In this document: positions 1 to 40,672 of the stretch, in pieces
Numbering within the stretch: the stretch's first letter is position 1
How the letters are laid out: each line of letters opens with the position of its first letter
Assembly (NCBI GenBank): GCA_023213395.1
Contig: CM041465.1
Span: forward strand, 59,341,741 to 59,405,740
Source of the DNA: Cycas panzhihuaensis
Lineage: Eukaryota; Plantae; Cycadophyta
Length of the DNA: 64,000 bases
Reading direction: 5' to 3'
Program-made: the position numbers and the translations under genes
Notes under the pieces: model-generated
The model's input: the letters and a program-made list of their open reading frames with translations, nothing else
Database searches by the model: none
What the model was told of the DNA's origin: nothing

Positions 1-600
1 ATTTCTCACAAGGCTTGCTCTCCCTATTATCCCTAAGCCAATGGCCAAGTTGAATCATTCAACAAAACCCTCATAAATATTTTAAAGAAAACCATAGCCC
101 AATCTGAAGGAGATTGGTATATCTATCTCCCTTCTGCTCTATGGGCATATTGCATGTCTATCTGCATGACTACAGGAATGACTCCTTTCTTCCTAGTCTA
201 TGGAATAGAGGTGGTTCTCCCATTGGAAGTGGAGATTCCTTCCTTACGAGTCTCTCTCTGAGGTTTTGTTGATGAAGAGTCTATTCGCTAGGCTTGCCTC
301 TTAGACCTCGAGGCCTTAGATGAGAAGTGCTTGACCGCCTACCAAGTGAACCTCGCTTCTAAGGCCAGGGTATGTGGGACATATGATAAACACCTTCATT
401 CATACCCTTTACATCCCAGGGACTACGTCCTTAAGATAGAGTATCTCCATAACCACCTGACCAAATTCGAGCCCAAATGGGTTGGCCCCTTCGTCGTCCT
501 TGAGAGCCTCGGTAATGGCGCTTATAGGATAGCAACCCTGGAGGGTCTCAAATTTGAGAAGGTCATCAATGGGAAATTCCTGAAAAAGAATTATGTATGA
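1..600 (+). pseudogene. C-terminal integrase of a Tat/Ogre-type Ty3/gypsy pol (truncated by the window edge)
   Basis: Manual translation from 19 gives SPYYP*ANGQVESFNKTLINILKK...W..YLPSALWAY...TGMTPFFLVYGIEVVLPLEVEIPSLR. ORF 331-600 ends with the GPY/F motif KFEPKWVGPF...GAYRIATLEG...VINGKFLKKNYV*. There are in-frame stops and no chromodomain. Confidence 0.93.
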
Positions 601-1964
601 CTACTTCTTTCTTTGCACTCTAAAATGAGCCTAAACTACCACCCTAGGCATGTCTCCATTCCCCCTAGTCATAGGTGGAATGGCAATTTAGGGTAGCCTC
701 CTAGCTTCTTCTGGGTTCCTCTTGTGGAACCCCTTATCCCCCTCTCTTTGGGGGCCCCATCCTCCTAATTGGGTGTGTTGTCCTTGTCACTTCTGAGCCT
801 AGAAACATTCCCCAACTAGGATAGCATGTTGGAGTATCATCACTCTCTTTTTCATTAGTGCTTCCTTTGCATATCCCGCTATGCTCCTATGTGGACATGT
901 GTGCCTCCTTGATTCCTAGCCTCACATATACCTATGGTTGATGCTCTTGGTGATTGTGTATGCACCCTTTGGGAGTGTGGCCCTACATGAAAGGAAATGT
1001 GTGCAACTCAAATAAACCTCAAACAAAAACCATATGATAATCAACTCAAAACATCATGATCTATAGCTCCTAGTTCATATGTGCAACCTCACACAATATA
1101 CACACAAATATACATATAAAAGCAAATGCAACATCATCCATCATTGTGTGTCATCATACATAGCATCATATATCAAATGGGGTACCAATGGCCTCATCTA
1201 TATACATAAAATCATAATGTGTCATATCATACAAATGGTATGGTACATCATCCATGGGAAGCCAAATCCTTACAGGGAGGAGTATAATCATGTGGTGACA
1301 TATGGTGACTCCCTGGAGGTCTAGTGCTTTCCCAAATCAAAACTGGTATCTCTTATTCTCTAATGCTATCCTACTCCTAGGGTATCATCTCATGGTCTAT
1401 GTGATCCCTCTCCTAGGGACCACATGCCTCCCAAACTCCTCCTGTGCGTATGGTAGCTCCCTGCTTCGGTCCCCTTATCCTGAGGCCTCCTCAGGGTCGT
1501 CGCCACTGTATGAGTATGAGTCTTGCTCCGTGATGACCTCGACATCATCTGGTCTACCACCTAATCATATCAAGCCTGGATATAATCCCTCTCCCTCTCT
1601 ATCCTCCAGAGCATCTCCTCCACCCCTCGGAGCTACTCCTCCATCACCGCTACCATGATATCACTCTCTACATCACCACCTACTCCTCCTTGAGCCTCTA
1701 GTGCCTGGACCTAGCCTCATAGAGCATCTCTCTCTGCTATGGTCCTATCTAGCTTGCCCTGTAGTTGCCCTACTCATTCCTTGTGCTCCTGTGACTCCAC
1801 CACCCATATATCTCTGACCATGACTAATGGGGTAAATGCTGCCATATAGTCCCCTACCAACCGTGGCTCCTCTCTTACTTGGATGGGAGGTTGCCCCTTC
1901 ACGTAGGCCTAGGGAAACATCTCTTGGACTACCGCCTCGACCAAACTCCTAATATTCACTACTC

Positions 1965-2085
1965 CTGTAAAATCCAACATGCCATATGTTAGTATATAAT
2001 CCATACATACACCAAACAAACCAAACAAAATAAAGCAACTAGATATCTAGTGATCGAAAGGTGACAGGAAAAGGTAGCATCTCAC
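1965..2085 (-). other. Intron 2 of the PMD gene (121 nt, phase 1)
   Basis: Donor AAG|GTGAGA at 2085, a T-rich body (TTTGTTTGGTTTGTTTGG), and acceptor TTTTACAG|GA at 1965. Composition shifts sharply against the purine-rich flanking exons and the frame is preserved. Confidence 0.8.
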
Positions 2086-3304
2086 CTTATGGGACTATTG
2101 GCTCTCCAACTCAGATGATCACCTCCTCCTTAGGTCCTCCTCCCACCGCCGGTACCTCCTCATCCTCTGGTACCACCTCACCAATCACTTGGCCCACCAA
2201 GGCACCTCTACCCTCCTCCATTTGTGTTGTTGCTGCCCAGGCTCTCCCCACTATCCTCAACCTCTAGACTGGTATCTAGGGTGCTCCACTGCTCCCTGCA
2301 GTCCCTGAAGGACCCGCCTCTTCTCCTGTAGCTCTGGATAGTCCTGCCTCTCCTCCTATGGTCCTTGATGAACTTGTCTCTCCACCTTTTGTTATTTATA
2401 GGCTGGCCCCATCACCTTCATCATCATAATCTCCATCACCATGGGTACCTCCTACTCCTCCTACCTTATCATTACTATCCCACCTCACCCCTCTATATAG
2501 ATCCACTGTATAGTCTTCCATGGTAAGGAGGTCTAGTGATGTCGCCTCTATTGAGCGTTAGACGTGTGCCTGGTCCTCGATTCCCCCGAACCAAGTCTGC
2601 CACCTGTGGACCATGAGAGCCTATGCTGAGATCATATGTGGTCCTCCTACTAGTGCCACTGCCTTAAAATGATCCAAGAACCAACACTACAATAACATGC
2701 TATATGATAATCCTCCTCTCCCATCCACCCTAATGGCATCTAGCTGGGTGATCAAGTTCGTCGCTATTAGTGTAGCCCAATCTAACCTCTCCCCAGCCTC
2801 CCATCTCGTCATAGTGTCCATCCACCCGTCGGGTATATCCCTATAATTCTATTTCCAGGATATCTGAAATAGAATGCACAACATAATCAACTTCCTTACC
2901 AGAGAAATCCTAGACATAATCATACTCTACATAGGAATGCCTCTCCTCTCCTACCGATCTTGGCTTGTAAAGTAGGTTAATACCTCCCTGTGTTCCATGT
3001 CATTGTTAGGTAATACCCCTAGCGATGATGGTGATCCTACTATTGGTACCCCTAGGATCCTCTGGATGTCTCCTCGCGTGACAGTGACATCTCCCACTTG
3101 GGGGAGGTGGAATACATACCTCCGTTAATCCCAGTGTGAGACTATATCCACGAGGAGGCACTGATCAGACATATAATGTGGTGTCCAGATGGCCTTTAGT
3201 AGGTCACATCTCCCCAACACTCACCTGTCCCCATGGAACATCATCTCAATAAAACTAAGCATGGCCACCCCTATGTTCTCGCGGTTATCCAACGTAATGA
3301 CCAC

Positions 3305-3803
3305 CTACAAAACACCCCAAAAATCAGTCAAAACGCATCTAAACATGTCTGCCTACCTTCATGACTACCCCTCACTCCCTCCTAGTTGAGGTCTAGCACT
3401 CCTGCAGGCCATTCTTTGTGTTTTTAATTATTTGCCTCTACACTACGCTAAACTCTGTAGTACCATAGAGTTTAGCATATGGCTCCGCTTTGTTTTCAGC
3501 ACAAACTCAGTGGCCCTATGGCAAAGTTCGTAGCACCATGATCTTTGTCATGAGGCCAGTAATACCCCCACATTAAGGGGGGTTTTCCACCCAAAAAACT
3601 GAAATTTTTTTGCCCAAGTGGGACATGCTCATGCCCACTAGGACTAGGGTTACCTAATGCCTAGATCCTCCCTCTTGTTAGGTCTAATTCAGACTCCAAG
3701 AAATTGCCATTTTCCCATAAGGGGATAAAACTATATTAAAAAGCGTTAAAAAGTCATTAAACGTAAATGACAAGATGGGTTAGGAAAGGGGTGATCCACT
3801 CAC
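3305..3803 (-). other. Intron 1 of the PMD gene (499 nt, phase 0)
   Basis: Donor CCA|GTGAGT at 3803 follows ATG-GCA-GTA-GTA-AGG-CCA-GAT-CCA. The acceptor is T-rich, ...GGGGTGTTTTGTAG|GTG, at 3305. Splicing puts the ATG in frame with the PMD motifs. Confidence 0.72.
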
Positions 3804-3987
3804 TGGATCTGGCCTTACTACTGCCATCTCATCTTCCTGATCTCGCTAGCTATCTCTGTGTCCTGATCCGATGGTCTGATCTCTCTTTGTATGTCTCTGA
3901 AGTCAGGCGGCGCTCTACTGTATAAGGAGAAGGGCTTTGAATCGATTATGAGTCCATGAAAATGAATCCCATTTTCATCGAGTTTTC

Positions 3988-3997
3988 CTTATATAAG
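3988..3997. promoter_or_regulatory. Palindromic TATA box (CTTATATAAG) between the divergent PMD and RNase H ORFs
   Basis: A perfect 10-bp palindrome gives TATATAA on both strands. It is ~160 nt upstream of the PMD ATG (3827, minus) and ~40 nt upstream of ATG 4036 (plus). Confidence 0.5.
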
Positions 3998-4035
3998 CAG
4001 GGGCCTCGACGAGCACTTCCTCTGTTTCTCTCATC

Positions 4036-4980
4036 ATGATAGCCCTTGGGACCATCGCTCTCCCCTGATCACCTTTGCCTTCTGGGTCTATCTCCTATTT
4101 TACCTTTGTGGCTCTCTTTTCTCCTTACCCTTCAAGTGCATTTATGGTGCCCCTCTCCTTGGCCCTGAAAGGCCCCTTCTATCTTATTTTACGTGCCACC
4201 TCCATATATACTCGACTTTATACTCATTTGGCTTATTTTTCCATCCTGAACCCATTTTTGCTGCTTGTTCACGCCTCTACGGCTCCCAAAGGAAGCATCC
4301 CCTCACTTGGGACCGTGCGTCAGTTCCTTAAGCAAGCTTTGGCACCTTCAGAGGGGCCTATTCACTATTGGTTCATTCCTATCCACCAAATAGTCTTCTT
4401 CACCCTTGGGTAATCTCATCTCTATGTCTTCCTACCTTTCACGACCTTTGTTGATAGCCACTTGATCATGCCCTATGACTGTTTCACATCACCGAGTTCT
4501 TTTGATCCATTGATCTTATCAGCATTTTCTCCGCCAAGACCTTCACTCCTTTTTTCATGGCATTACTCATCTTTATCGATGGTGGAAGCCACGATAACCC
4601 AGGCCCTTCCACCACCACGTGGATTTTTTGTGACCCTTCTAGACACAACTTTATGCGTTCTAGGATCTTCCTTCCCGAGGCCACCAATAATGAAGCTAAG
4701 TACATAGCTATTATTGAGGCCCTCAATGATGTGCTTCACTTCCACCGTGGACCCATCATTCTCCTCTATGACTCTTAGGTTATGGTGTCCTATCTCACCT
4801 AGGTTTATCAAGTATGATGCCCATGACTGAGAGCCCTCACCTCGACCGCTAGATCCTTGTTAGCTTGTTTTTTCATCTATTGATATCCGACACATTCCTC
4901 AGACTCTCAACATCAAGGCAGATATCCTGGTTCATCTCATCCTTGAGCGTTGCCTCCCTCTCCTTAGTAACCCACCTTGA
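4036..4980 (+). pseudogene. Stand-alone additional (archaeal-type, aRH) RNase H ORF with an uncharacterised ~170-aa N-terminal region
   Basis: ORF 4557-4778 reads IFIDGGSHDNPGP...EATNNEAKYIAIIEAL...IILLYDS, and the downstream sequence reads HIPQTLNIKADIL (RNase HI D/E/D/D pattern, E decayed to K). Upstream ORFs 4075-4413 and 4462 onward share a frame with ATG 4036. A frameshift separates them from the aRH frame. Confidence 0.82.
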
Positions 4981-5388
4981 GAGGCTTGTCTGGTCACCCG
5001 AGTGCCTAAGTCTTGGGTCATCTTGTCTTTCACATCACGATCCATTCGCACCTCTGAAAATTGATCGTTAATGAGGCTAAACTATGGCAACCACCAGGTT
5101 TATTTTCCTTACTCTACTCTTAGCATCTCTCTTAGCACATAACTCCCACTAATGTTAACTTACCTTTTGTGCATAGCACCTTATTCATGACATCTGTCTA
5201 ATCTTATGTGTATTCATCACCACCCTTCCATTATACTCTTACGATGGGGGCATCCCCCTCATTCGCTATCATTGCCTGTTGTCTATACGATGACATATAG
5301 GCAGCCCTTATATTGTCTCACCCTTGCCTCTACACCCACGTGTTCCACCATGTCACTCATTGTCTCCCTTGGCTCGCACCATTGTTAT

Positions 5389-5391
<3 letters not shown>

Positions 5392-5434
<43 letters not shown>
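5392..5434. repeat. (TA)n microsatellite
   Basis: About 21 perfect TA units. Confidence 0.97.
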
Positions 5435-5437
<3 letters not shown>

Positions 5438-5501
5438 ACTAATATTGTGTTGCCAACATTCACCATTGTATTATGCCTTTGAGATGCGAGGCTCTGATAC
5501 C

Positions 5502-5511
5502 AAGGGGGCAG
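5502..5511 (+). other. Polypurine tract of the Tat-type element
   Basis: AAGGGGGCAG lies immediately before TGTTTCC, the putative LTR start. Confidence 0.65.
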
Positions 5512-8500
5512 TGTTTCCTAGCTATTAGGAATAGGTTCTTAGCAAGTTAACTCAGGTAAGTACAGGTATACTTCTATCCTTTTCCTTTGCTACTTTTATA
5601 GAAAGGTAAATCGAAGTGTCCTTTTATTGCATGATTGATTGATACATTTGAGTGATCATCTTGCATCCATTGCTTGCTCATATTGCTTGACATTCTTTCA
5701 GCCTATGACAATTTACAGGACATGTATTCCCATGGCACTTCACAAGCCTCCTATGCACCTCCATGTTGTCTTAAGTGTTACTTAGCCTGTGTGATCCATT
5801 CATACCCACTTTACCATATCATAGCTCTTAGCGTCATGCTAGGTATGATTGGTGTATTCCTATCTGTTTGTCAGGTTCCTGGGAATCTTACCTCCCTCGT
5901 ACTCCATTTGGTCTAGGTCATCCTCTCCATATGACTATCCCCAGCCACCTAGATAGAGGGTGAGCCCCTCCTAGGCTTGGGGTACCCTTATTTAGGTCTC
6001 CTAGGTACCTTTTCTTCTCTCATTTTTACTTTTGTCACCACACTGTGGAAAATGTCATGGTATTATGGTAAACTTCATGGTACTGCGAAGTTTTCCATGG
6101 GGCGACTATTATAAAATATTTTTTCTAATATGCCATGGTAAATTTCACTTTTTTTGTGAAATTGCCATGTGGATTAGTCATCCCTTGAGTCCTAGCCTAA
6201 CCCTAATTATCCAATTAAGCTAGGGTTAGGTATAAAACCCAAAAAGACTTTATTTTCCCTCCTCTTCTTCCATCTATTCTCCTCTTTTCTCCTACTTTCA
6301 CAAGTAGTTTTCTATAGGAACACCCTGCAACATTTGAGATACCTATATCTTAGCTTGAGATCTACCTTCTTCAACTCATATCCATGGTAGTAGGCTTAAG
6401 AACAAGCTTCTCCAAGCAAGGATGCACTTCAAGTCTCACCTCCACGTGTGATCATCAAGTTTCATCAAGATTCTCTTTAGGTTTCATAGCCCTTGTAGGG
6501 AGCACCACATATCTATCCTTTTCTACCATTTTCTCAGGCAGACTTATGACTAATCTAGCCTCAATAGGTACCACCTCATGTTTATTTTATTTTATTCCTT
6601 TTAGAATCCCTAAAAGAGATTGCATTACTTCGTATACCTTTCATTTTAGAGCTTTCTAGTATATACAAGAGGCATCCCCTCCATTCTTCTGTTTCTGTCC
6701 ACATTACCTTCCTTCTTTCTCCTAGTTTCTCTAAGGAGGCTATGAGGAGAGGTCCTTAAAGAGTGAGAGAAAGGAGCCAAGGTGTGTTTCACACCTACTA
6801 GGCCTGCTCCTCAAGGGCAACCCCCTTCTCCTCTTTTCCTCTATTTCTCTTGTGCCTTTCTTGTACTACCAGGGAGCTCTCGGAAGAAGGCCATTGCTGG
6901 TATTAGTGTACGCAACCTCACTTGGGAAGAGTTTCCAACTGTGAGTTATGTCACATATTAACTTTGGGTTTTGGCTTGGTCAAAGTTACAAAACGCTGCA
7001 CATTGCAACATTTGCAACATAGATAGTATTTACAAACCCTATGATATCTATTTCTCCCATTGTTTGCTACCATTAGGCTATCCCAATTTACTGCTCTTGT
7101 GCTTAGAGGTAGCTTGGAGGTGTATATATTAGAGGACTAGCCATTCCAAGGCTAACCATCCACGTCCTTTGTCTTGTATTGCTTGTATAAAGGAGATTAG
7201 AAGTTGTTCCTTAGTTGGAAATTTACTTGATTTAAAGTGATATGCTTACAACATTCTTAGCATTTTGCATCTACGTATATATATATTTGTTTGGCACTCT
7301 AGTAGCCCCTTGGATAAGGGTAGATAAACTTTGTGATTGCAGGCTTCACCATGTCACTCACAAAGAAGGAAGAACCACTTCAATCTAGGTATGTCTCTTA
7401 CCCTTCCTTTCCTTAGTCATTTCTGCTTCTAGCATAGTCTTTCATTTTACCTTTCTTGCCTTTTCTTTTCAATTCAAGGAAGGTAAGGGAGCCCCAACTC
7501 CATTGCTCTACACTACCCATGCATTGGGAGAAGGAAAGGGACAAGCAATCATGGCATAAGATAGCATCCTTGTTTTAGCTGCATAACTTTCCAGGTACAC
7601 TGCCCTCCTTTTTTCATAACTGTTTCCCTTTTCTTTTCTTAAGTTTGCTTGCTTGCATAACCAAAACATAAAAAGAAAAGAGGAAAGGAACTTATTTACA
7701 CCTACCTTTTGTATATGTATGCTATGCTTGCATCCTTAGGAAAGAGCATGAGATAGGACTATCCCCTCTTTCTTTCCGCTTGATTGCATACCACCCTTTT
7801 AGGCTTTACATCTTTAGTATGCATGTGCGTGCTTGCATGGTTTTCCTTCTCTATGCCCTTTTTCTATTCAAAGTGAAAAGAGAGTAAGGATGTGCATTCA
7901 AGGGAAAATAACAGAGTATATTTGTTATTTTTATATACGTCTTCCATTTCTTATCTACAAATACTGCTAGGTGGATATCATTTCACCCTCATATACCAAA
8001 AGTTGAATGTTTTACTTGTGAGATGGTGAAAGCTACTTTTTCCATCATCCTTTATCCCCTCCAAACTCACTTTAGGTGGGTTAGCCTAGGAGGATTCGTC
8101 CTCTAGCACATCCTCCTCTAACCCCATTGTACTCACCTTGCCTAAATCATATTGACACCTTCTCCTTTAGGTTGGTCTCATGCGTGAGGTGGTTATTCAA
8201 CACCACCCTTACAAGTGTGTACCTCCCGTGCCACTTGTCTACGCACATTCTATTCATATTTCTTCACTTCCCATGAGGATCCATTCCCTCGTTTGGTATT
8301 TCCCTTCCCTTCCGGATATCCAAGGGTAGGAAGACCTACATCTTGAGGTTACTCAGGAAACCAAGGATATCCCTCATATGTGCTACCCCCAAAACCAAAA
8401 TCAAGTTACCTAGAGAGAAGTTGTGTGCCATTTGTGGGTCCCGAACCTATGTTCCAATGCACAGATGCCCTGTGTGGGTGATTTCCTTACTTATTGGATT

Positions 8501-8669
8501 GACTATATTCTCTAGATCCTTTTTTTGACCAACTTAATCCTAACCAGGTGTAGTTACCATCCCATAGACGCGATTCCATCTTCTTAGAGGTTGGTTGAAA
8601 GGTCCACGCTTGAGACATCTTACCATTAGTTCCTTTTCATATAGATCTAATAGGTGGTTAGTCCCAACA
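5512..8669 (+). repeat. Probable 3' LTR (~3.1 kb) of the Tat-type element
   Basis: Starts with TG after the PPT and has TATAAAA at ~6231 followed by a CT-rich leader. It is non-coding and ends ...GTCCCAACA, just where unrelated chromoviral RT sequence begins. The partner LTR is outside the window, so the ends are unverified. Confidence 0.55.
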
Positions 8670-11387
8670 TACAAAACCACTCATCATGGTCATTTTAAGT
8701 TCCAAGTAATGCCTTTTAGTCTTTATAATATCCCCTACCTTGTAAGTCTTAATTAATAAAATTTTTACTACCCACCTTAAAAAAATTATCTTTATTTTTT
8801 TGATGATATACTACTTTATAGTTCTTATTTAGCTTATACCTTCATCATCTAGAAATTATTCTTTAAATTCTACACTAATATCAGTTGTATGCTAAACTTT
8901 CAAAATGTGAATTTAGTAAATTTGAATTATAATACTTAGGTCATATCATTTTATCAATAGGTATACAAGTAGATACTAATAAAATTTTAATTATCTCCAT
9001 TTGGTCAACCCCTATAAACCTCACCTAACTACATGTCTTTCTTGGCCTCATAAGATTTTACTACAACTTTGTTTGTAACTATGCTTCTCTTACTATCTCT
9101 CTAAATAACCTCTTATATAAAGGCTCATTCTAGTGGTCCCTAATTATAGAAGTTATCTTTAACTAGCTAAAAGTAGTTATGAACTCAACTCCTATCTTTA
9201 CTACTTTAAATTTTTTATAACCCTTTCAAATTGAGTGTGATGCTTTAGGATTTTGCATAGGAGCACTCCTTATGTGAAATTTTCATCCTATTACCTTTGG
9301 AAGCCATAAAGTTAAGGATTATGAATGTCAACTATTAACTTATCAAAAGGAAATGAAAGTGATTTTGCATGTAGTAGATAAATGACAATAATATCTCTTA
9401 GGCTCCATATTCATAATCCTCACCAATCACCATAGTCTCTATCATCTTTTGGATCAACCTGTACTATTAGAAGAACATGTTAAGTGGATTAACTACTTAT
9501 AAGTATTCAACTTCACCATATCCTATAAGAAAGGTAAATATAATAGTATTTTCGATACTCTATCATGATTACCTTTTGATTCAAACATTCCTACTCTTAC
9601 CATTCATGCCATCTCTAAATCCCATCCTATATGGTTAAAGGATTTGGTAATAGAAAACTTGTCCCAATTAAACTATCTATAGTGGGTCATAAAAGCCCAT
9701 AACCAAAAGGACTAGTCAACCTATAATAATTATGTCCTATTCATATTTTTGTCCACTTTGTCTCCTCCTTCATTCCTTGCATCTTATTTAAATACCATTC
9801 TATTCCTTTAGGTGGTTATTCTGAGTTTGATAAGATATATCAACATATTCTTGCAAGATTATTTTGGCCTCTTATTAAGTTAATCATCCTTACCTTTATG
9901 TCTAAGTGTGTCACTTATCAAAGAAAGAATATGGACATTAAGGATCTACTAGGTCTTCTCTAGCCCTTGCACATTCCCTAGGGTCATTGGAAAGACATAG
10001 CCATGGATTTTATTAAATGTCTACTAATATCTATTGGATCTTATTCAATCTTAGTTATCATTAATAGACTAACTACGTATGCCTATTTCCTTCTAGTACA
10101 CATTTCATATAAGGCATCCTGTCTTACACACCTTTATACTCTATTCATCTTTGCCTATATAGGTTTCCCTCATCTATCCTTTATGACCAAGACCCTAAAT
10201 TCATTAGGTCTTTCTATCAAAAACTCTTTCAAGCATTAGGAACCTCATTTAACATGAGCATGACCTAGTATCCATAAACTAATGGCTAGTTAAAAGTTAT
10301 AAATAAAACATTAAAAACTTATTTACATTATTTTACTTTTAGCCATTAAGCTAAGTAGATTTCCTAGCTATTATTTTTGAATATTAGTACAACTCATCTC
10401 ATCATTTAATTATACGTATGTCCTTATTCATGGCTCTTTATGGGTACCTCTACCATCCCACCAAACTATAGCTACTAATCTTTGAACTACTTCTATCTAA
10501 CAAAAACTTCAAGATATGGACCAAATCCTACACACTCTTAAGTTAATCCTAGAAAATATGTAGAATCATATGAAGTAACTTATCAATCATCATTATTTTG
10601 ATCATTGTTTCTTTGTTGGTGACCTAGTATTCCTTCATCTTCAAACTTATAAATAGTATTCTCTCAAGAGCTATACAAGCCACATGTTAAGCCCATACTA
10701 CTATGTCCTATATAAAGTTCTACAAAAGATTGGTCAAGTTACCTACATACTCAAACTCTCATGGGATATAAAAATTCATAATATATTCCATGCCTCCTAC
10801 TTAAAGAAATAACTTAGCAAGAATAGTATTCTCTAGACCACTCTTCCCATCATTAATGATGAGTAGTTACTCATAATTCCCCTAGTTATATCATCGTTAA
10901 TTTATAATACCACCTTCAAAACTAGACCATCTCTAAGCATTTGGCATAGTGGGTCAGTTGTGATTTAGAGGAAGTAACATGGGAATTAGATGCTTTCCAA
11001 GTAATACCCTCATCTTCTAAGCTTTGAGGACTTACCATCTTAAATGGGGGGCACTTATTATATAATCATATGCCACTATTAAAATTAAGTTGTTCATTCA
11101 TGTGATTAAGGTGTGTGATGGTTAGAGTTTCTTCTAAACTAGTGTGCATGGGGCCACTTATATCCTCTAATAGGAATGAGGGTTAATTTTCCTCCAATTG
11201 AATTCTATAAGTAAGGGCCATACTTGCCTATTTAAGGCCCAACATTTGTAAAGGAAGGTTACATCTAGAGTTTATTTATAATATCATACTATAATATGAA
11301 TTTAATGATCTTTACTATACTTTCAAGTGTCCCCTTTTATAAATTTTGGTGCATAAATCAATAATCTGTCATTATGCTCTTGTAACA
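8670..11387 (+). mobile_element. 3' half of a degenerate chromoviral Ty3/gypsy element: RT-RNaseH-integrase-chromodomain, PPT, 3' LTR 11056-11387
   Basis: HHGHFKFQVMPFSLYN and FFDDILLYS (RT), PFQIECDALGFCIGA (RH), WKDIAMDFIKCL (INT, ORF 10003), IHNIFHASYLKK and W....EEVTWE (chromodomain). The PPT AAATGGGGGG is at 11042-11051. The LTR runs TATTATA...TGTAACA, a decayed TGTTACA inverted end. Confidence 0.88.
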
Positions 11388-23924: not shown

Positions 23925-26900
23925 GGAAAATGTGTAATAAGATGAATATCTTCTCCCATAACTGAGACTTCTACTATGAGGATAAGATCTATCAATATGA
24001 GATGGCCTTCCTCTTTCTTTATGAGGAGGTGGCTAATCCCTTTGTCTAAGATTTAGAGGATGAATATTTTCCCTTTATAGTGGTATGTCCCTTTAGCAAT
24101 TGGGACAACATTGATGTGGCCCTTGTTGTCTTTCTTCACTTAGATATCTAGTTTTCCTTAAATCTTTTTTATTAGCTCCTTGTCTTTGGTGAGGAGCTTG
24201 GTATCTTGGATGTCTTTATTGGTGTGGCATATGTCTAGGGTTTCTACTCTTTTCTTTTAGAGACTAATCCCTAGATTTAGAAGTCCTTGCTTGAGCATGT
24301 GGTTATGTCCTTATCTTAGTGGCAAAAGCATGCTCAAGTGATTTATTAGATGCCTTCTTCTCTTCAACAACTATTAACATGGCACTCAATTATTCTATTT
24401 TGAGGGTGCTTAAGTCTTTGGAGACTTCAATGTTGGTTGTGACTCTTTCAAAGCTTGGTACGACACTAACACATCATAGAATCCTTTCAATAACTCTTTG
24501 TTCAATTAAGGTCTCTCCAAGAGATCTCATATGATTAACTAGGTATTGTACCTTTGTTATAAAGTCAGTAACTAATTTATTTGAATTTATCCTTAGGTTT
24601 TCAAATTTACTCCTAAGGGTTTGAAGCTTTGATGAAGCCACTTCTTTATAAATTAGTTGTAAAGTATCCCATACTTGCTTTGATGTGGTTGCTTCACTCA
24701 TCCTTGGAAAGATTTTATTATCAATAGCACAAAATAATAATGCTAGAGCTTCATTGTCTTTCTTAACTATTTCTTTAAATACCCTCTTTTATTCATTTGT
24801 GGCTTGGTCACCTAGATCTATATAGACTGTATGAACTATGTCCCATAATTCTTTTGACATAAGGATAGATTTTATTTTTCTACTCTAAATTAGAAAATTT
24901 GTCCCATCGAATATTGGAATAGTTATATTTCCTATGCTTGTTGTCATGTTACTCAACTTGGGTTATGATAGTAATCATTTAGTAAATAAAATATGTTTAT
25001 CCCACCAAGGTTTTAGTTAAATGAATAAAAAAGAAAATCAAGTTTAACCCAAGGTTTTATAAGTGGACTTAGTCCCTAAATGAGGTTTGCTAGGCACTAA
25101 GTTTAAGTTTCTCCTAGGATAACCTTTGGTTGCTATCCTGTCTAGTGGTGCTAGCCCATATATGGCAAAATAGGGACCCAATATACTGGTACATGAGCAC
25201 TATGCTTTATATACCTCAATACGTGGGCTACTAAGAAGGCTTTTACACTCCCTTGAATTGTTGACCCACCTACACAAAACTTATGCCTAGTGATAGATCT
25301 AGCAGTGAAGGTTCTTGAACCAAGGTACTTACCCTCTCTAGTGTTGAGAATACAAGGTCCCAACCCTTTAACCACCACTAAGATCTATTACATTCTCACA
25401 ACTAGTTACAGAAATTGAAACTTAAAATTACATGCAAGTTCTAAAATAAGAGATTATACAATAATATGGAAATAAAAGCTAAACATCATATATACACCCA
25501 ATATAACATGGTAAAACCTTAACAGTGTGCTAGGGAAACATCCACACAAGAAAGATATCGATCTTTATTACTGTAGAATGGAGAAACAATACATCTCCAT
25601 TACAGAGTACTCTTAGGAACAACAACTAATCGCCGCCCTCATCACAGTATATTGCATTACATTACAACATAATAAGAAAAGCCCTAAAACAGGCTATATG
25701 AGAGGAACATCCAAGACCTAAATCTCAATCATAGAATCTAGGGTATTTGTATCAAATGACCCTACTTCTCTTTACAATTTAATAAGGTTTACAGGGCTAA
25801 TTTTTTGGGTTGGGGGCTATCGCCCCTAAACCTCCTCTTAGCGGGGGGTGTTCCACACCCCCATACCCCCCAGCCAAGGGGGGGCCCCGCCCCCCTTAGA
25901 ACCCCCCGAGAAAGATTGCGGGGGGAAACTGCACCGAAAACACACTAAAATTTTAACCCTAAAATATTATTATCATAATATCTAACATCCAGGTCTAGCC
26001 TTAGTCTCTAAACACCACAAATGGAAAGGTTTTGTACCTTAGCCTACCACTGAATACACCTGATAGCCAAAGGCTTTCCTCATCTAATATGAGTAGGCCA
26101 AGTGGCATGTATGGGGTGGTAACTTCAAGGGTCCTAATCATTCCCCTTATAAGGCTAGAAAAAAATGAGGTTTAATTTAGGTAATTTGAAAATAAAAAAT
26201 ACCCTTCCCCTTTGAAGTATTATATTCCTTTGTGAAAAATAATAACTTTTTCCTTTAAAAAATATAAAATAAAGATGAAAATTTTTCTAAATGAAAGCCA
26301 AGTAAGCTCCTTTAATCAAGTTTTATAAGCAAGTTGTGTTGAGAATGGAGGAGGGTAATTATTCTTTAATAATCATAAATAAGTGGAAGTAATTTCTTGA
26401 TCAAGTGCAAAAGGACTTTAAATAAGTTTTAGATTTGATAAAAGTAAAAAATATGATAAGAAATACCTGTTTACCAAATTGAATGAACAAGAGGGGCTCC
26501 TTTTTCTCTAGAGGCCCAAAATTAGTCTAAGTAAGCTATAAAATGGCTTAAAAACTCAATAAATACTAATAAATATTATTGATAATTAGTATTATATAAA
26601 TATCAAGTGGAATATATTCACAATTATAAAGAAATTTGGCTCAAAAAGCTTAAAGAAAGTCTAATTAGGACTTGAATGAAACCTCAACTCTAGGAGCTTT
26701 GAAAGCCTATAAGAAAACTTTAAAATTTATAAGTAAATATGTCAGACCAAAGAGAAATGAGTCAGATTCTCAACGGAACTGATGGATCTAAAATCTGATA
26801 TGAATCAGTAAAGTTATATCGAAAAAGGTAAAATGTACTTTTTATGTTAATAACTCAAAAAAGATTTAGAAAAATGATTGAATTTAACTGATTAAAAATA

Positions 26901-28461: not shown

Positions 28462-31450
28462 CTAAGAATAAAGAAAAACCTTATGTTAGTATCTCAGTTG
28501 AGTGAAAAAAATTAAGAACTAAATTTAATAAAAATAACCATTGTTATATTCTTGACATGAAAAAGAATGGTGATGTAATAACCGAAAGAGAAAAATATAA
28601 TAGGCTTTATAACCTTCTCTCCACTCCTGTGCTGCCTAATAAAGGACCCACAAAATCCCCTCCAATGTAAATTTACTTAATGTGACCAACAATGATACTA
28701 ATGAAATGTGGCATTTGAAGTATAGTCATATCTCCTATGATAGATTAGAAAAACTAAAAAAATCAAATATGGTGAATGGTATATATGATATTTCATTTAA
28801 TTCATTTGTATACAAAGTCTATATGATGGGGAAACAACACAAAATTCTATTTTCAAAAAACACATGGCACGCATAAGATAAGTTGGATTTAATTCATACT
28901 AATTTATATGGTCCATTTACACCAATTTTAATGAATAGAACAAGGTATTTTTTAATTTTCATTGATGACTTCTCCAGAAAAACATAGGTGTACTTTTTAT
29001 TTAGCAAATTAGAGGTATTTAGTTATTTCAAAGAATTCAAAGCTAAATCAAAACTAGAAAGTAGCAAGAAAATCAAATGTATTCATTCAGATGGAGGTGG
29101 TAAGTTTGTATCTAATGAATTTCTTCATTTCTATAAGATGTATGGAATCCAAAAATAAGTCACAACTTCATATACACCTTAATCAAATGGGGTAGTGGAG
29201 AGAATGAATAGAACAATTGTAGAATTGGCTCAATGTATGTTAAATGCTAGTGAGGTCATAAAGAAATACTAGGCAGAGGCTGTAAACATAGTTGTTTACT
29301 TTATTAATGAATGGTAATTACAATTACTGCTTAGAAAGGATGGAAGATTTATTAGATGGATGTTAGAAGTGCCTTCCCAAATGGAGATCTATAAGGGCTA
29401 ACTTCCATCATAGTGGTATATATAGATGACATGCTAATCATAAGAGATGATGAATACTTGATCACGCTCATTAAGAAGTGATTTGAAAAGGTATTTGAAA
29501 TGATAGGTCTCAAAATGTTGCACTATTAACTCATAATAGAAATAAGACAAAATAATAATTCTATTATCCTATCATAATCAAAATATATCAAAAACGTATT
29601 AAACAAGTTTAATATAGAAAGCTACAATAGTGTTACCACTCCAATGGAAATTGGATATGTGTTAAATACTAAACAAGAAGCATAACCAATTGATGTAATT
29701 TTATATAAATAATTGATTAGAAGTCTAATTTACCTCACAACTACATGACCAAACATTTCCTATGTAGTTGGTGTAGTTTCTAGGTTTATGGAAGATCCCA
29801 AAATACCTCACTAGAATGCTACAAAAAGAATCTTGTGATATCTAAAAGGAACCATAAATCTTGGGTTAGAATATAGAAGGGATAATAATATGCAGCTAAC
29901 AGACTTTTGTGATTCTAATTGGGCTAGAGATAGAACAAATAGAAAATCAACATCAGGATATTATTTCTTTCTAGGAACATCATTAATTTCCTAGAGTAGC
30001 AAAAAGTAATATACAATTGCTTTGTCTTCAACAAAAGCTGAGTACAAGTTAACAGTCAATGCAGCATGTGAAAGAGTTTGGATCAGACAACTCCTTAGGG
30101 ATCTTAAACAAGAATAGGCAATGCCTACTCAGTTATTCTGTGACAACCAAAGTACAATAAAAATGACCAAGAATCTAGTGCTACATGTAAGAACCAAGCA
30201 TATAGAAGTGCATCACCATTTCATCAGGGAAAAAGTATAGAATAAAAAGTTAAACTTTTGTATTATATAATAGAAAATCAAACTAATGATATCCTCACCA
30301 AACCTCTTAGCAGGAAAAAAAAATTTAGCTCTAGAAATCATTTAGGACTAAAACAGATAAAACATTAAGAGGGGGTGTAAAAGGTAATGTTTTGCCTAGT
30401 ATAATGATTTATCTAGGATATCTAAGGTACCTTGTAAGGGTCATGCATAATTACCCCCTTACAAGTGGCACAATCTCATTAAGTAGTTGCCATTTGTCCC
30501 GTATACTTTGAATTATATTTATAGACTTGTAAATGATCAATAAAGATGCAAGAGAGAATCCTTTTGATAGATTCTTCCTTGATTTGCTTACTAATGGATA
30601 TTTCCTTACTTAATTTATCATCATCATATTACTCATGGGTAGATTTCTTATTAAATTATTCTTCACTTTGATCACCTAATTCTTCGTGTGTGCCACTTAT
30701 CTTCTCTTTATGTTACTCCTCAGTAGACTTCTCACTACATTATTTTTCTTCTTGACTAACTATTTTTGTGTAATCTTTTATATCCTCCTTAAGATCTTTC
30801 AATCTAGATAATATTTTTTAAAGTGCATGTTAATGGTCTTTTTTTTAATCTTCCTTTTAATATTTATTCTTTAAGTTCATAAATTTTCCATTAATGTAGT
30901 TTCTCTAATGTTCATACCACCACTTTATAATTCTTTCTTTAAACCTTATGAAAAAAGATTATGAAAAATGTTCCCAATTAGGGTAATAATCAAAAAGCCT
31001 TTTAATGGCCCACTCTTGAGCTTATTTACCCATATATTTCTAAATATATGAGGAAAATAACTTTATTTCCATATGGAGTTGAATATTAAATCTTTTCTAA
31101 ACTTTGTCTGACCACTCTATAGGTCAAACTCATCCATCTTTAATAGAAATAAGAATATCTAACTCTATCTTTAGACATTCAATTTGAAATATAATTATAA
31201 TATTAAATCGGCTCCAAAATACATCAAATAGTATCTCAAAATAATGGCATATGAATCAATGTTTCAATTCCTTAGATGAAATCAAATTTTGATACTTATA
31301 ATAGAAGTTATGGCCCTTGTAATATAGGTCACAATTAGAGTTTTAGGGATTAAAATAATACCTATTATTAAAATGTCAATATTTTTTTACTCTAGTATAT
31401 ATTGGATCTAAAACCACTTAAAACAAATAGTAGATATTAAGACGTATAGA

Positions 31451-34400: not shown

Positions 34401-37400
34401 TAAAGAATGTATGAAGAAGGACAATGAAGTATTAGCATTAATTTTCTATGCCTTATAAGACCATATCTTTCTAAGAGTTAATGAGCCATTAAAGTCCAAA
34501 GAAGCATGGGACATGTTACAACTTATCTATAAAGGAGTAGCCTCATCAAAATTCCAAATACTAAGGAGTAAATTTAAAAACTTGAGGACATTGCTTAATG
34601 AGACCATCAATGAGTTCATAACAAAAGTCTAAGATCTTATGAATCAAATTAGATCTCTTGGAGAAACCCTTATTGAATAAAGGGTTGTAGAAAGGATACT
34701 TAGGTATGTTGGTAAAGTTAAAAGGTTTGAGATGGTAGCCACAAGTATAGAAGTCTCTAAGGACCTAAGTACCTTGAAGATTAAATAATTAAGTTCCATG
34801 TTGATGGCTTTTGAAGAAAAGGAAAGCATAAATAAATCCTTAGAACGTGCTTTTGCAACAAAGGATAGGATAAAATCTAATATCCAAGTTGAAAGCTCAA
34901 GGATAAGGAATCAATCCCTAAGGGGGAGAGATAGGAATCCTAGAAAAGAGATATACTAAGATCATCAACTTGGATACCAAGCTCCTCATGAAATATATCA
35001 AGGAGCTAATCAAAGATACCTAAGTCAACATCGGTATCAAATTCAAGAAAGACATCAAGAAGCTAGTTAATGTTGTCATAACTACCAAGGCCATAATGGT
35101 TTTCAAAGGCCTAATTTAAATTATCCAAGCAATATACAAAGAGACAATTAAGGCCCATACTTGGAAAGGGGTAGTATACTCTCTATGGATAGAGGACACC
35201 CTAGAAGTAAGAGTCTAAGTCAAAAAGGAAGGGATCCAATCCATTGTATATTTTATAACAAAGTTAGCCATACTAAAGATAGATGCTTTGCTAAAAATGG
35301 CTCTCTAACAAGAGGAAGTGCTACTGCAGTCATTGAAAATAGAGAGAATAATCATATATTTTTAGAAGGCTTTATTGACCATAAAAAATAAGATTATTGG
35401 TATATAGACTCTAGTTGCTCCACATATATGACACATAAAGAAGAGATAATCCAAACTATTATTAGGTCTAGGAAGGGCACAATCATATTTGGTGATGATA
35501 CATTATATGAATCTAGTAGAAGGGGTAAATTCATTATCATAATAGATTCAACAAAAAACATATATCTTGATGATGTTCTCCACATACCAACTCTTAAGAA
35601 AAATCTCCTATCTATGGGACAAATAATAGAATAGGACTATAAGGTTGTGTTTGACAATGGTGAATGTAGTATTAAGGACAAAAAGAAAAATAAAGATGTT
35701 ATTGCTAAAGGAAAGATGATTAGCGATAGACTCTTCAAGTTAGTCATATCCCCTTTGGATAACTACATGTTAAAGACAATAATTAAGATAGACAGTGACA
35801 TGTGGCATAAAAGGTTTGGCCACTTAAACTATGGAAGCTTGGCCCTTATGAAAAGAATGAATATAGTTGAAGGTCTACCACAAATTGAGGCTGATAAGGA
35901 CATTTGTAAGGGATGCCTCTTAGGTAAGCTACATAGAGAAAGTTTTCCTGATGGAAGCTATAGAGCTAAGGGGCCACTTCAATTAATCTACATAGATCTT
36001 TGTGGTATAATGGACGTCCTATCTCTAGCTAGTGTAAAGTATTTCTTCACCTTTATTGATGATTATACAAGAAAGACATGGGTCTATTTTCTAAAATTTA
36101 AGTCATATGCATTTCAATGCTTTATGGATTTCAAAACATTTATGGAGAAGCAAAGTGGCCATAAGATACTTTCTTTAAGATTAGATAATAGGGGGGAGTT
36201 TATTTCTAATGACTTTAATACTTATTATACCTACCATGGCATTAGAAGGGAATATATAAACCCCTACACACCACAATAGAATGGGGTTACTAAATGCAAA
36301 AATTGCACCATAGTTAAAATGGCTAGATGCATGATCAAAGATAAGAAATTAGAACATGAATTTAGAAGAAGCTATGAATACTATAGTTTACCTCCTAAAT
36401 GGGTGTATCACCAGGGCCCTTAGGTGGATAATACTAGAAGAAGCATGGACAAGTTACAAACCTAACGTTCATCACTTGAGAATTTTTGGATGCCTAGCCT
36501 ATGCCCACATTCCAGAATAAAAAAGGACTAAACTTGATGATAAGAGTACTAAGTGTATATTTATTAGGTATAGTGATATATCAAAATTATATAATGTGTA
36601 TGACCCAAAGGAAAGAAAGGTTATTATTAGTAAAGATGTATCTAAAGAAGATGATTACTATCAATTAGATTATATCTAAGATAAACAGAAAAATATTATA
36701 ATCAACTTTGATCCATCTCCAAGTTCCATATATATGCCACTTAGATAGGATTCATGGTAAAATGTTGGTGTATTAAGGCCAAGTGATAAGGAAACCTCCA
36801 CTCAACTTTAAAGGTTTCCCAAATAGGTCCAAAGAAGCCATGACTTAAACAACATATTCGATAATAACTTTGACAGGAGATTTACTTACTCAGGGTAAGT
36901 TAACTTCACCCTTATGAATAAAGTGATGGAAGTCAATCAACCTCACACTTTTGAAGAGGTAGATATTCATGATAAATGGAGAAAAGATATAGGAGTATAA
37001 TTTTATAGTAAAAAATAATACATGGGAACTCGTTAATCTTCCTCCCAACAAAATAGCCATTGGAAACAAATGGGTCTATAAGACCAAGTTCAAATTTAAT
37101 GGGTACATTGAAAAACATAAGATTAAACTTATTACCAAAGATATATTCAAAGAGAAGTCATAGATTATAATAAAACCTTTACCCCTATTACTTGGATGGA
37201 GACTGTTTATATGATATTAAGTCTAATAGCCCAAAAAGATTAGGATGTTCACCAAGTGGACATCAAGAGTGCCTTTCTCAATGGATACATTGAAGAGAAA
37301 ATGTATGTTCAACAACCAAAAGGTATTAAAATCAGGGGGGAAGAAAATAAAATGTATAAACTTAGAAAGGCACTTTATGGTTTGAAGTAAATACCTAGAG

Positions 37401-38774
37401 CATGGTACTCTAAGATAGATAAATATTTCAAAGATCAAGGATTTGAGAGAACCTAATCGGATCTAAATCTATACATCAAAATCAAAGGAGACTCCATATT
37501 GATTATGGGACTTTATGCTGATTATTTGGTCTATATAGGAAATGACCCATATTTTTCTCAAAAGTTTAAGGATGATATGTGCAAGGAGTTCAAAATGATA
37601 AACTTGGGGTTAATACATTGCTTCCTAGGATTGGAAGTTTGGTAAGATGATGATGGTATCTTTGTCTCCTGAAGGAAACATACCTTGGACTTCCTCTAAA
37701 AGTTCAAGATGAGTGACTGCAAGGCCTTGCCCATACTAGTAGAAGTTGGAATCAAACTATCCAAGCTTGATTACTCTACTCTTATTGATCCTACATTATA
37801 TACATAGTTGATTGAAAGCCTACTATATTTGCTATTAATATGACTAAATAACATGCATGTAGCTAATGTGTGTTAAGGTTTATGCAAGATCATAAAACCA
37901 CTCATTGGCAAGTGACTAAACAAATCCTACGATATCTAAAAGGTACAATAAACTATGGGTTATATTACAAATTTTCATTAAAATTTAGATTGATTAGGTA
38001 TATAGATTTTGATTAGGTAGGTGATGTTGATGATAGAAAGTCTAGTTTTGGATGCACCTTTAGTTTAGGTTCAACAACTATAACATGAAGTACTAAAATG
38101 TAGAATACTATCTCCTTATCTACAACTAAAGTAGAATATAAGGTAGCAGTATCAGGTGCATGCAAAATAGTTTAGCTACATCATCTACTTCATGATCTCC
38201 AATTGAAACATGATGGACCTACCAAAATATGGTGTGATAATTAGAGCACTATTCAAATGACATGTAATTTGGTTTTCCATAAAAGAACTAAACATATTGA
38301 GATGCATCATCACTTCATTTAGGAACTTGTCTAAGTAAGAGAAATAGAGTTATTTTATTACATCACAAAAGATTAGATAACAAATATTTTTATAAAGGCA
38401 CTTAGGAAAGTTAAATTTCACAAATTTAGAAATAAGCTTGGAGTTACACCAATGAATATTATGGGGGAGAATGTTAGCATATAATATTTATTTTATATTA
38501 AAAGTATATATAATGGCATTGGAACTCTGTGGGGCTACCTCCAGCTATCATCAGCTAGCATAGGGAAAAAGTATATATTATTTTATTCATTTTTTAATTA
38601 ATATTTGATTTGAAAAAAAAATCAATCAATGACAGGCTTTCTCAAATCTCGACTATAAATATAAGGTAAAAATACTCACTAGTGTTCTTTAACACCACCA
38701 TTTATTAGAAATTTTGTTAATATTTCATCAATATGGCTTAATTCTTTTTTTGCTCTATCTCTATATTTGCTTCA
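31451..38774 (+). mobile_element. Full-length degenerate Ty1/copia element C (LTRs 31451-31753, 38472-38774)
   Basis: A 303-bp LTR pair, TSD ATAGA/ATGGA, PBS TGGTATTAGAG at 31756 and PPT GGGGGAGAA at 38463-38471. gag starts at ATG 34231. Protease (WYIDSSCSTYM), integrase (ORF 35647: WHKRFGHLN, CKGCLLGK, FIDDYTRKTWVYFL), RT (VDIKSAFLNG) and RH (KRTKHIEMHHHF) are present. Confidence 0.95.
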
Positions 38775-40553
38775 ATGGATTTATAAAATAATTAAGATTA
38801 ATCAAATACTCATATCCAAAGTTATAGCCATTTGAATTTATAGTAATAAATTTTAAGCCCTAAAAAAAGTGATAGATAATAGACCAAAACTAAATTCCTT
38901 ATAATTTTGTAATTTTGCTCCAAAAATTATGGTATAACCATTTAAAAGTTTCAAAATAAGATTTTTCAACTTAAATTCATAATTATATTTTTGAATTTCT
39001 TCTATTTATACTCTTAAAAATGCAAATAATTCATATACTAAAAAAAAATCTCTAATACCACTTAATGTGATCTTAAATTGGATCCACTTTTTCAAACATA
39101 AAAGAAAACTGAAATGAAAATTGAATAACAAAAATTTCCCTAGGCATAAATTACTAAATCAAATTAGGTTTAAACCAAAAATAAAACTTACATAATGAGT
39201 TAGGGGGCTCTTTTATTTATAGGTGCTAATAAGGCTCCCTATTAAAAAAAAACTTTAATAATAATATTAATAATAAAATATCAACTTCCTAATATAAAAA
39301 ATTAACTTCATATTAATTTTAAAGTACTATCTATAAAAATTAACTTTTAATAAAACACCACTTCTCTTTAATAAAATAGGATTGGTAGATAATCTCTAGT
39401 ATGGTCACTAGAGATGTAATCTTGAGAGGGTAATGAGACTCATACAACTTAATTAAAGACTGAAGACTAAAGGCCCAAGTCAATGAAGGAAGGTCCAACA
39501 ACCTCTCTTAAGATTCTATGCACCTCAAGGGCATAGATATAGGTGTGAAGGATGTGCAAAAGAAGAGGATCTCATATGCTAAAGGAGAAAGAGGTGAATG
39601 GAGATGTTGCAAATAAAATACAAGATATCTATCTAAGCTACTCAACAAGTATAAAACTCATAAACTATACTTAAAAGAAAACATCAATCTCACATGAGTA
39701 AAGCAAAATAAATACCTAGTTATGCTAACCCTCTTAGAAGAGGAATACAACACCCAAAAAAACCCTAAATATTAAGAGAGTCACCAAGGCATGAATGGCC
39801 TAAATATTATTGAAATCTTATGATCTTATCCATTATTCTACTTTCCAAAATTAATGACCTATCTTAAACCCACCCACCTAATGGATATGTACATTGAACT
39901 AAACTAGACTAAAGAGGGGTGATTATTTAAGAGAAGGAAACTATATGGAGCTAAATCATGGGGTAGAGACAGTAATCTAGTGATCAAGCATTTGGAAACA
40001 AAATATACCAATCCTATCCTAAGTGTATATGGTGGCTAAGGTACTACTTGAATTTAACTCTATATAATATACTCCTTAAGGAAGAAATAGATAAAAAATA
40101 ATAATTTTAATAGGTCTAACAATGTTCAATTAACTTCTAGTCATAATAGTTTTCCATAATTGACCTATATAGATAGCAACAAGAGTAGCCTAATCTTTAG
40201 GTGTAAGACTAGTATAATGGCTGATAATAAAATCCAACTTGTTACTAACTAGTTGCTCCTCTAACTAGGTGACATTATATCCCAAATAGGCAAAAGAGAA
40301 AATAAAAAGTACTATATATAATCTAATATGTGATTACATTTTGTATTCATACAATAATTAAATATAACTAATATACAAACCTATAACCCTTGGGTTTAGG
40401 GACTTGCAACTCTGTGTGGCAATCCCATTTTCACCATAGATCTCTTATGCAATAAAGGCCCTCTATCTAAGACCTAATTCTTTTTACTTCTTTTATTTTA
40501 GTGATTTAATTAAGTTATTAAAATACAAAAAGATAATAGGACAATATACCTCC

Positions 40554-40592
<39 letters not shown>

Positions 40593-40635
40593 GAAGTATA
40601 TGCATATACTTCTATGTGTGTGTGTATGCATATAC

Positions 40636-40672
<37 letters not shown>

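What the first reader, a model, noticed from the sequence alone, without database searches (positions are those of the whole stretch)
1288..4980. Divergent two-gene accessory cassette (spliced PMD gene and stand-alone RNase H) inside a Tat retrotransposon
Seen: between the integrase stop (600) and the PPT (5502), two ORFs point away from each other. Their ATGs (3827 minus, 4036 plus) are ~210 bp apart around a palindromic TATA. Established: PMDs occur in some Ty3/gypsy elements and MULEs and in Arabidopsis MAIN/MAIL1, which act in silencing and genome stability. Tat elements carry an extra archaeal-type RNase H, which lies after integrase in some non-angiosperm lineages. Inference: the pair is a co-regulated, LTR-independent module, like retroviral accessory genes, combining a chromatin-acting protein with an RNA:DNA hybrid nuclease, possibly for counter-silencing or R-loop control. 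I do not know of this arrangement being described as a unit, but could not search.
Basis: partly seen in the sequence, partly recalled or inferred. Interest (0 to 1): 0.85.

Follow-up and report, generated by a model that had tools for sequence, protein, structure and literature searches.

The report
Back-to-back gene pair in plant retrotransposon
A decayed copy of a plant retrotransposon carries, behind its integrase, a plant-mobile-domain gene and a free-standing RNase H gene that point away from each other and likely share one internal promoter; both genes were already reported for this kind of element, but the back-to-back layout would explain how the displaced RNase H gets made.

Summary
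The two genes are real, but both are broken in this copy. An antisense PMD frame (Pfam PF10536, E 8.7e-9) and a sense archaeal-type RNase H lie between the integrase stop (600) and the polypurine tract (5502), around a palindromic TATA (3988-3997). Related sequence covers 30 of 30 bins in five DNA-like runs from five species labels. No TIRs were found at the borders. So this is family anatomy, not a private insertion.

One correction: the ATG at 4036 is not supported as the RNase H start. ATG 4557 fits, so the two starts are about 730 nt apart, not 210.

Post-integrase RNase H plus an antisense PMD ORF is the published TatIII (lineage III, structure 3) design. In seven paper searches I did not find the head-to-head order, the likely three-exon PMD-coiled-coil gene or a shared promoter; the key figures could not be seen.

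Most likely the RNase H replaces the element's degraded native RNase H during reverse transcription, rather than controlling R-loops, and the PMD protein is a regulator. The promoter, splicing and selection are not shown. New variant of a known kind; interest 0.4.

The parts
1..600 (+). 3' end of pol: integrase C-terminal part, 3 in-frame stops, terminal stop 598-600
   Evidence: (SH3_Tf2-1 E 6.9e-5, rve_3 E 0.013, both under cut-off)
624..674 (+). short motif behind the pol stop, repeated behind the aRH stop; the surrounding 615-715 folds as a hairpin
   Evidence: local alignment, P=0.007 against mononucleotide shuffles; z -2.7
1288..1964 (-). predicted exon 3 of the PMD gene, long helices typical of a coiled coil; true end uncertain (between about 1392 and 1288)
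   Evidence: acceptor AG 1966-1965 and phase match; helices at residues 61-156 of the 1962-1393 translation, block pLDDT 60-78 for residues 61-140; stop depletion only P=0.08
1965..2085 (-). predicted intron 2, 121 nt, GT-AG
   Evidence: an RNA-like contig is 134 nt shorter than the window across this span; no exact joint seen
2086..3304 (-). predicted exon 2: PMD domain (about 3180-2510) plus acidic, Gly-rich linker; 13 stops
   Evidence: natural relative P0001, 59% identical, has a residue at 5 of 5 aligned stops
3305..3803 (-). predicted intron 1, 499 nt, GTGAGT...TAG
   Evidence: 15 stops in frame; no depth in bins 3388-3673 in both RNA-like runs, a weak hint
3804..3827 (-). predicted exon 1 of the PMD gene, 8 codons from ATG 3827
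   Evidence: sequence and phase only; conservation in the family not tested
3918..3927 (.). second TATA-like box, mirror image of the first
   Evidence: sequence only
3988..3997 (.). palindromic TATA box, candidate bidirectional core promoter; pyrimidine-rich stretch (79%) at 4012-4035 on the plus side
   Evidence: TATA core also present in a family loose-end group of 16 contigs (X7 3985)
4020..4556 (+). probable non-coding leader of the RNase H gene; family-shared to about 4250, poorly shared 4321-4530; AG at 4521-4522 is a candidate splice acceptor
4557..4980 (+). stand-alone archaeal-type RNase H (aRH); 4 stops, one frameshift near 4875; 3 of 4 acidic core residues kept in this copy
5070..5123 (+). 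second copy of the post-stop motif
5502..5511 (+). polypurine tract
   Evidence: sequence
5512..8669 (+). 3' LTR, about 3.16 kb, TGTT...AACA; right end read from sequence only
   Evidence: directly followed by an RT-like motif of an older element (motif recalled; no Pfam hit on the 32-aa piece)

Best explanation
This is the 3' part of a decayed Tat-type LTR retrotransposon in which an antisense PMD gene and a sense stand-alone RNase H gene sit head to head, likely both read from one internal two-way promoter, with the RNase H predicted to supply in trans the RNA-removal step of reverse transcription and the PMD protein predicted to act as a regulator of the element.

Shown: the domains, their order and strands; the TATA palindrome; family-wide presence of every segment; no TIRs at the borders. 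Inferred from sequence: three exons for PMD plus a coiled coil; RNase H start at 4557. Introns of an antisense gene survive copying because their splice signals are not read on the genomic RNA; this is established logic for antisense retrocargo and was not tested here. Inferred from literature: the native RH of such elements is degraded, so the solo aRH would be a displaced core enzyme, not an extra. Untested: both transcription starts, how the aRH reaches the reverse-transcription complex, and what PMD does (counter-silencing is the leading idea).
For: Domains.

Family: 70,970, 63,915 and 62,134 contigs laid from X1, X2 and X6 with 30 of 30 bins covered; 14,648 and 11,332 from X7 and X10 with 30 of 30 bins. 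Only 1-2% of them run on into unlike sequence. Listed pieces bridge the PMD 5' end and the TATA region (3727-3946, 3845-4131, 3864-4083, 4024-4212).

Former coding constraint: PMD stop depletion P=0.007; P0001 has residues at 5 of 5 aligned stops. The RNase H core site lost in this copy is kept in most laid contigs, including all the depth of RNA-like run X22 at that site (table 3). Loose ends in X22 (4 contigs) and X24 (1) carry the Arg typical of archaeal-type RNase H (table 7; marker from PMC4408406).

Possible transcript: one 2138-nt contig of X22 joins PMD exon 2 to exon 3. It is 134 nt shorter than the window over the 121-nt intron, and its end extrapolates to about 1261; two other contigs (X22, X24) end at 1266 and 1264. 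Both RNA-like runs have no depth in the bins 1958-2100 and 3388-3673, which X7 and X10 cover.

Promoter: the palindrome, a pyrimidine patch on the plus side, and the summed depth of bin 3961-4140 above both neighbours in 3 of 3 deep runs (depth is only a hint).

Literature: native RH degraded in all aRH structures, and the authors ask how a separate-ORF aRH can work (PMC10508981).
Against: No transcription start was seen; contigs cannot show starts or strand, and X22 is RNA only by guess. No clean GT-AG joint is listed in either run. The empty intron bins may reflect divergence, because X22 also has no depth in the coding linker bin 2244-2386. One X24 contig runs on at 3310 into intron-like letters, and both RNA-like runs have some depth in 3674-3816, mostly intron 1. 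One X22 contig (3979-4264) crosses the TATA itself.

The conserved stretch 4000-4250 could be the upstream promoter of the PMD gene alone. The leader from TATA to ATG 4557 is about 530 nt with 5 upstream ATGs in this copy, which is poor for scanning translation. No listed piece bridges 4318-4596 or the whole cassette, so synteny in other single copies is not shown. The stop count in the aRH frame is at chance level, P=0.47. Third-position bias among 20 listed PMD differences is 10 of 20, P=0.09, from rows the tool selected; this is not a dN/dS test. RT and native RH lie outside the window.
Confidence: 0.55

Rival explanations
1. Same element and genes, but the internal promoter drives only the antisense PMD gene. 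The RNase H is made from LTR-driven RNA spliced to the acceptor at 4522, either as an env-like subgenomic message or as a Pol fusion.
For: An AG with a pyrimidine tract at 4521-4522 lies 34 nt before ATG 4557, and the frame is open from 4506. The leader is poorly shared at 4321-4530. A Pol fusion would solve packaging and would fit the 2015 view of aRNH at the C-terminus of Pol; the 2026 paper calls that point controversial.
Against: No joint into 4523 is among the listed joints of either call (15 shown of 339; 15 of 72). X22 has some depth in 4389-4531. The TATA is symmetric and has a pyrimidine patch on its plus side.
Confidence: 0.27
2. One reading: a co-regulated accessory module in which the RNase H clears R-loops or RNA:DNA hybrids at the element's chromatin and works with PMD against silencing.
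For: Head-to-head layout. PMD-C proteins counteract Polycomb and resemble the VANC anti-silencing domain (bioRxiv 2024.09.27.615353). A free RNase H could reach the nucleus.
Against: The same aRH sits inside pol in other Tat lineages, and the native RH is degraded wherever aRH is present, so a replication role explains it without a new function. No data here link the two proteins. The VANC likeness is reported for PMD-C, while retrotransposon PMDs are PMD-A.
Confidence: 0.1
3. The PMD gene, with or without the RNase H, is a later independent insertion (MULE fragment or captured host gene) that only rides along.
For: PMDs occur in MULEs and host genes. A short motif flanks the cassette on both sides, and one contig in each of three runs joins 638 to 5069 (side 22 nt, letters between not known).
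Against: No TIR pair at the borders; the best long-range inverted repeats are 16-28 nt at 71-88%. All segments are shared across five species labels with 1-2% run-off. The PMD-plus-aRH design is published for the lineage.
Confidence: 0.06

Closest known systems
Tat lineage III (Ustyantsev 2015, PMC4408406) = TatIII (Neumann 2019, PMC6317226) = structure 3, clusters Tat H and I (Biryukov and Ustyantsev 2023, PMC10508981; PMC13468544)
   Same: aRH after integrase; antisense PMD eORF in the 3' part; large element with long LTR (TatIII: 39 elements, mean 14.7 kb, aRH 92%, eORF-3'R 18%). The 2023 and 2026 papers treat the aRH as a separate ORF.
   Different: The 2015 text puts aRNH at the C-terminus of Pol and the PMD ORF at the element's 3' end. 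Here about 4 kb with the PMD gene lie between integrase and aRH, so the genes diverge. The 2015 text gives lineage III a PMD without coiled coil; here a predicted third exon adds one. The 2026 paper does not mention PMD in its main text (0 hits); I saw none on reading the 2023 text, and its supplement has 0 hits. Figures were not visible, so the order may be drawn there.
PMD-CC eORFs of Ogre-type Tat lineages IV and V (PMC4408406)
   Same: PMD followed by a coiled coil; antisense and 3' in lineage V
   Different: Their aRH is inside pol between RH and integrase; there is no divergent partner gene
Maize Grande gene23 and Retand antisense ORFs (PMC7264820, PMC11963269)
   Same: Antisense gene between pol and the 3' LTR; Grande's has its own internal promoter and a nuclear product
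   Different: Retand ORFs mostly carry TRP28 instead of PMD; no sense gene is reported on the other side of the promoter in the passages read
Arabidopsis MAIN/MAIL1/MAIL2 (PMD-C) and VANC anti-silencing proteins
   Same: PMD family match; possible chromatin role
   Different: Host or MULE-type PMD-C. The clade of this PMD was not tested; no usable structure model was obtained.

Membership tests
TatIII / structure 3 Tat | additional RNase H located after integrase | tested here: met
   integrase stop at 600, RNase H at 4557-4980
TatIII / structure 3 Tat | additional RNase H is of the archaeal type | tested here: met
   RVT_3 above cut-off; best PDB hits 3u3g, 4e19, 4h8k, 3hst (that these are archaeal-type is recalled); marker Arg in RNA-like contigs but not in this copy; no tree built
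TatIII / structure 3 Tat | aRH in a separate ORF outside pol | tested here: met
   about 4 kb and many stops separate it from pol in DNA; a spliced fusion is not excluded
TatIII / lineage III | antisense PMD eORF in the 3' region | tested here: met
   PF10536 on the minus strand
TatIII / structure 3 Tat | RT/RH/INT phylogeny within Tat H or I | not testable with these tools
   RT and RH lie outside the window, no genome is held, and the REXdb sequence file is too large to read
TatIII / structure 3 Tat | degraded native RH; tRNA-Arg primer site; 5-bp target duplication | not testable with these tools
   the 5' half of the element is outside the window
TatIII / structure 3 Tat | gymnosperm host | not tested
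   organism names are coded; strong CG and CHG depletion fits a large methylated plant genome; gymnosperm is an inference from the element's structure
TIR transposon (MULE) carrying PMD | terminal inverted repeats around the PMD gene | tested here: not met
   in one decayed copy; old TIRs could be eroded
PMD-A (retrotransposon clade) | placement in the PMD tree | not testable with these tools
   only one relative found; no reference set

The most novel reading that the evidence does not exclude
A retrotransposon has moved an essential reverse-transcription enzyme out of pol and put it, back to back with a spliced chromatin factor, under one LTR-independent two-way promoter. The switch that makes the counter-silencing protein would then also license reverse transcription of the whole family in trans.
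Probability: 0.25. Interest if true: 0.68.

Novelty: new variant of a known kind. Interest (0 to 1): 0.4.

Why it matters
Biryukov and Ustyantsev (PMC10508981) state the open question of how an RNase H placed outside pol can work and still go with decay of the native one. The layout here gives a concrete, testable answer: an internal promoter shared with the PMD gene, or a splice acceptor just before the aRH. It also gives a candidate full structure for a non-angiosperm-type retrotransposon PMD gene, which bears on where host PMD silencing regulators came from. The parts themselves are known, and this copy is dead.

Tried and rejected
No whole genome is held, so full-length copies, LTR dating and dN/dS could not be done.

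Searches for long relatives. Viral contigs with the integrase tail and with P0001: no relatives. Metagenome contigs with P0001: one 16-aa match, L001, with no other similarity to the element; rejected as chance. No second copy in the window.

Protein searches. PMD: 1 hit of 689 candidates. aRH: 0 of 1. P0001 against longer proteins: 0 of 173. The 4036-4410 frame: 0 hits. These libraries may simply hold few such plant proteins.

Structures. The P0001 model had pLDDT 37.5 and was not used for a fold search. The exon 3 model had mean pLDDT 52 and was used only for helix content. The protein atlas gave no answer. Complex prediction was not run, because RT is outside the window.

Runs. No RNA holder was listed. 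RAD run X16 laid 5 reads, 4 of 30 bins, and is uninformative. X24 covered 21 and X22 26 of 30 bins. 8 of the 24 listed runs were laid.

Considered and rejected. An extra intron at 2899-2864: too short, and P0001 is coding through it. A plus-strand intron 4410-4522 joining ATG 4036 to the RNase H: it fits the phase, but the upstream frame has no support and a sense intron would tend to be lost on copying. Rfam: 2 matches, both far below the gathering score. Earlier scan findings: none in 4 look-ups.
Full report
1. Setting. The first 8.7 kb of the window are richer in G+C than most of the rest (0.38-0.48), and the whole window is depleted in CG and CHG, as in a large methylated plant genome. Bases 1-600 are the end of a Ty3-type integrase. 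A polypurine tract at 5502 precedes an LTR of about 3.16 kb, 5512 to about 8669 (the right end is read from sequence only). The 5' half of the element is outside the window and no genome is held.

2. The minus-strand gene. Read with X at stops, 3304-2450 matches Pfam PMD above the cut-off (E 8.7e-9). It has half the stops expected from shuffles (8 against 16.8, P=0.007). One natural relative was found among 689 candidates (P0001, 59% identical), and it has a residue at all 5 aligned stops. GT-AG sites give a phase-consistent model: exon 1 3827-3804, exon 2 3304-2086, exon 3 from 1964. Exon 2 ends in an acidic, Gly-rich linker. Exon 3 is predicted to form long helices (mean pLDDT 52) with heptad spacing, which matches the PMD-coiled-coil design of Tat lineages IV and V. 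Exon 3's stop depletion alone is not significant (P=0.08) and its end is uncertain.

3. The plus-strand gene. 4557-4980 is an RNase H of the RVT_3 type, and its 4 PDB hits are RNase H proteins. This copy has 4 stops, a frameshift near 4875, and has lost one acidic core residue and the marker Arg. Its frame is interrupted and out of phase, has no homologue, is no more open than chance (P=0.105), and three groups of family contigs lack an ATG there. These groups are diverged loose ends, not a count of the majority. The start codons are thus about 730 nt apart, with the TATA palindrome 160 nt from the PMD ATG and 560 nt from the RNase H ATG.

4. Family evidence. 24 runs were listed; 15 hold part of the stretch, under 10 organism labels, all at shares of 0.20 or less. 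I laid 8. At 80% likeness, X1, X2 and X6 (DNA by guess) and X7 and X10 (kind not on record, very short contigs) cover 30 of 30 bins, and only 1-2% of laid contigs run on into unlike sequence. Most laid contigs are under 95% alike, so the family is diverse or this copy is old. Short pieces bridge the PMD 5' end and the TATA region. No listed piece bridges 4318-4596, the least shared part, and none spans the cassette. No TIRs were found. So each part belongs to the family, but order in other single copies is inferred from tiling.

5. RNA-like evidence. X22 (RNA by guess) and X24 (kind not on record) laid 98 and 22 contigs, mostly under 90% alike. One 2138-nt X22 contig carries PMD exon 2 and exon 3. 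It is 134 nt shorter than the window across the span holding the 121-nt intron, and has 228 nt upstream of the exon 2 acceptor that are not placed in the listed pieces. Both runs are empty in the bins 1958-2100 and 3388-3673. Against this: no exact GT-AG joint is listed, a coding linker bin is also empty in X22, one X24 contig continues into intron-like letters, and one X22 contig crosses the TATA. RNase H contigs in X22 keep the core site lost here, and loose ends in both runs keep the marker Arg. Splicing and expression are therefore suggested, not shown; strand and starts cannot be read from contigs.

6. What is known. PMC4408406 (section 6 whole; passages; supplement legends, file 1 not searchable) describes gymnosperm lineage III with aRNH at the far end of Pol and an antisense 3' PMD eORF. 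PMC6317226 (passages; one supplement row) defines TatIII with aRH after INT; its element table and sequence file were too large to read and may show the gene order. [quoted passage not shown] Its text says 'upstream of pol', while PMC13468544 (passages) calls structure 3 post-integrase. It reports the native RH degraded in all aRH structures and asks how a separate ORF could work. PMC7264820 (passages) reports Grande's own antisense promoter. PMC11963269 (passages) covers Retand antisense ORFs. PMC5418596 and bioRxiv 2024.09.27.615353 (passages) raise anti-silencing roles for TE-encoded PMD-C. PMC9289625 (passages) confirms PMD as the commonest extra Gypsy domain. Steinbauerova 2011 was not read. 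Seven searches gave no paper that, in the parts I read, describes the head-to-head order or a shared promoter. Figures are not held and most subscription papers are missing, so absence from print is not established.

7. Mechanism. Most likely (0.55): a two-way internal promoter near 3990 makes a spliced antisense PMD-coiled-coil message and a sense aRH message. The aRH would stand in for the degraded native RH in reverse transcription, and PMD would regulate the element, perhaps against silencing. Main rival (0.27): the promoter serves PMD only and aRH comes from LTR-driven RNA spliced to 4522.

8. Verdict. The element works like, and by every structural feature testable here fits, TatIII; phylogeny, primer site and native RH could not be tested. 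The parts and their co-occurrence are published. The divergent order, the exon structure and the promoter idea are the possible additions. New variant of a known kind, interest 0.4.

Noticed in passing
window 624-674 and 5070-5123: The same short motif (14 of 15 letters at its core) follows the pol stop and the aRH stop; the first copy lies in a hairpin (z -2.7). One contig in each of three runs joins 638 to 5069, which may be a cassette-free derivative or a mis-laid repeat.
   Followed up: partly
window 1261-1520: By far the deepest stretch in all five DNA-like runs; it holds small hairpins (minus strand 1400-1520, z -2.45), and three RNA-like contigs end near 1261-1266. It may be a cis element or the 3' end of the antisense message.
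   Followed up: partly
window 5490-5502: Directly before the polypurine tract the sequence reads like the complement of the usual initiator-tRNA primer site (motif recalled, from no call). Unexplained.
   Followed up: no
window 8670-11050: The LTR appears to be inserted into the RT region of an older, heavily decayed Ty3-type element (RT motif recalled).
   Followed up: no
window 3918-3927: A second TATA-like box mirrors the first, so the two starts could come from two facing boxes instead of one palindrome.
   Followed up: no
window 5392-5434 and 40544-40715: (TA)n microsatellite inside the element's 3' region, and a larger TA/AC array further on.
   Followed up: no
window 29782-29873, 37876-37967, 24093-24567, 34611-35088: Pairs of diverged direct and inverted repeats, probably further decayed retroelements.
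   Followed up: no
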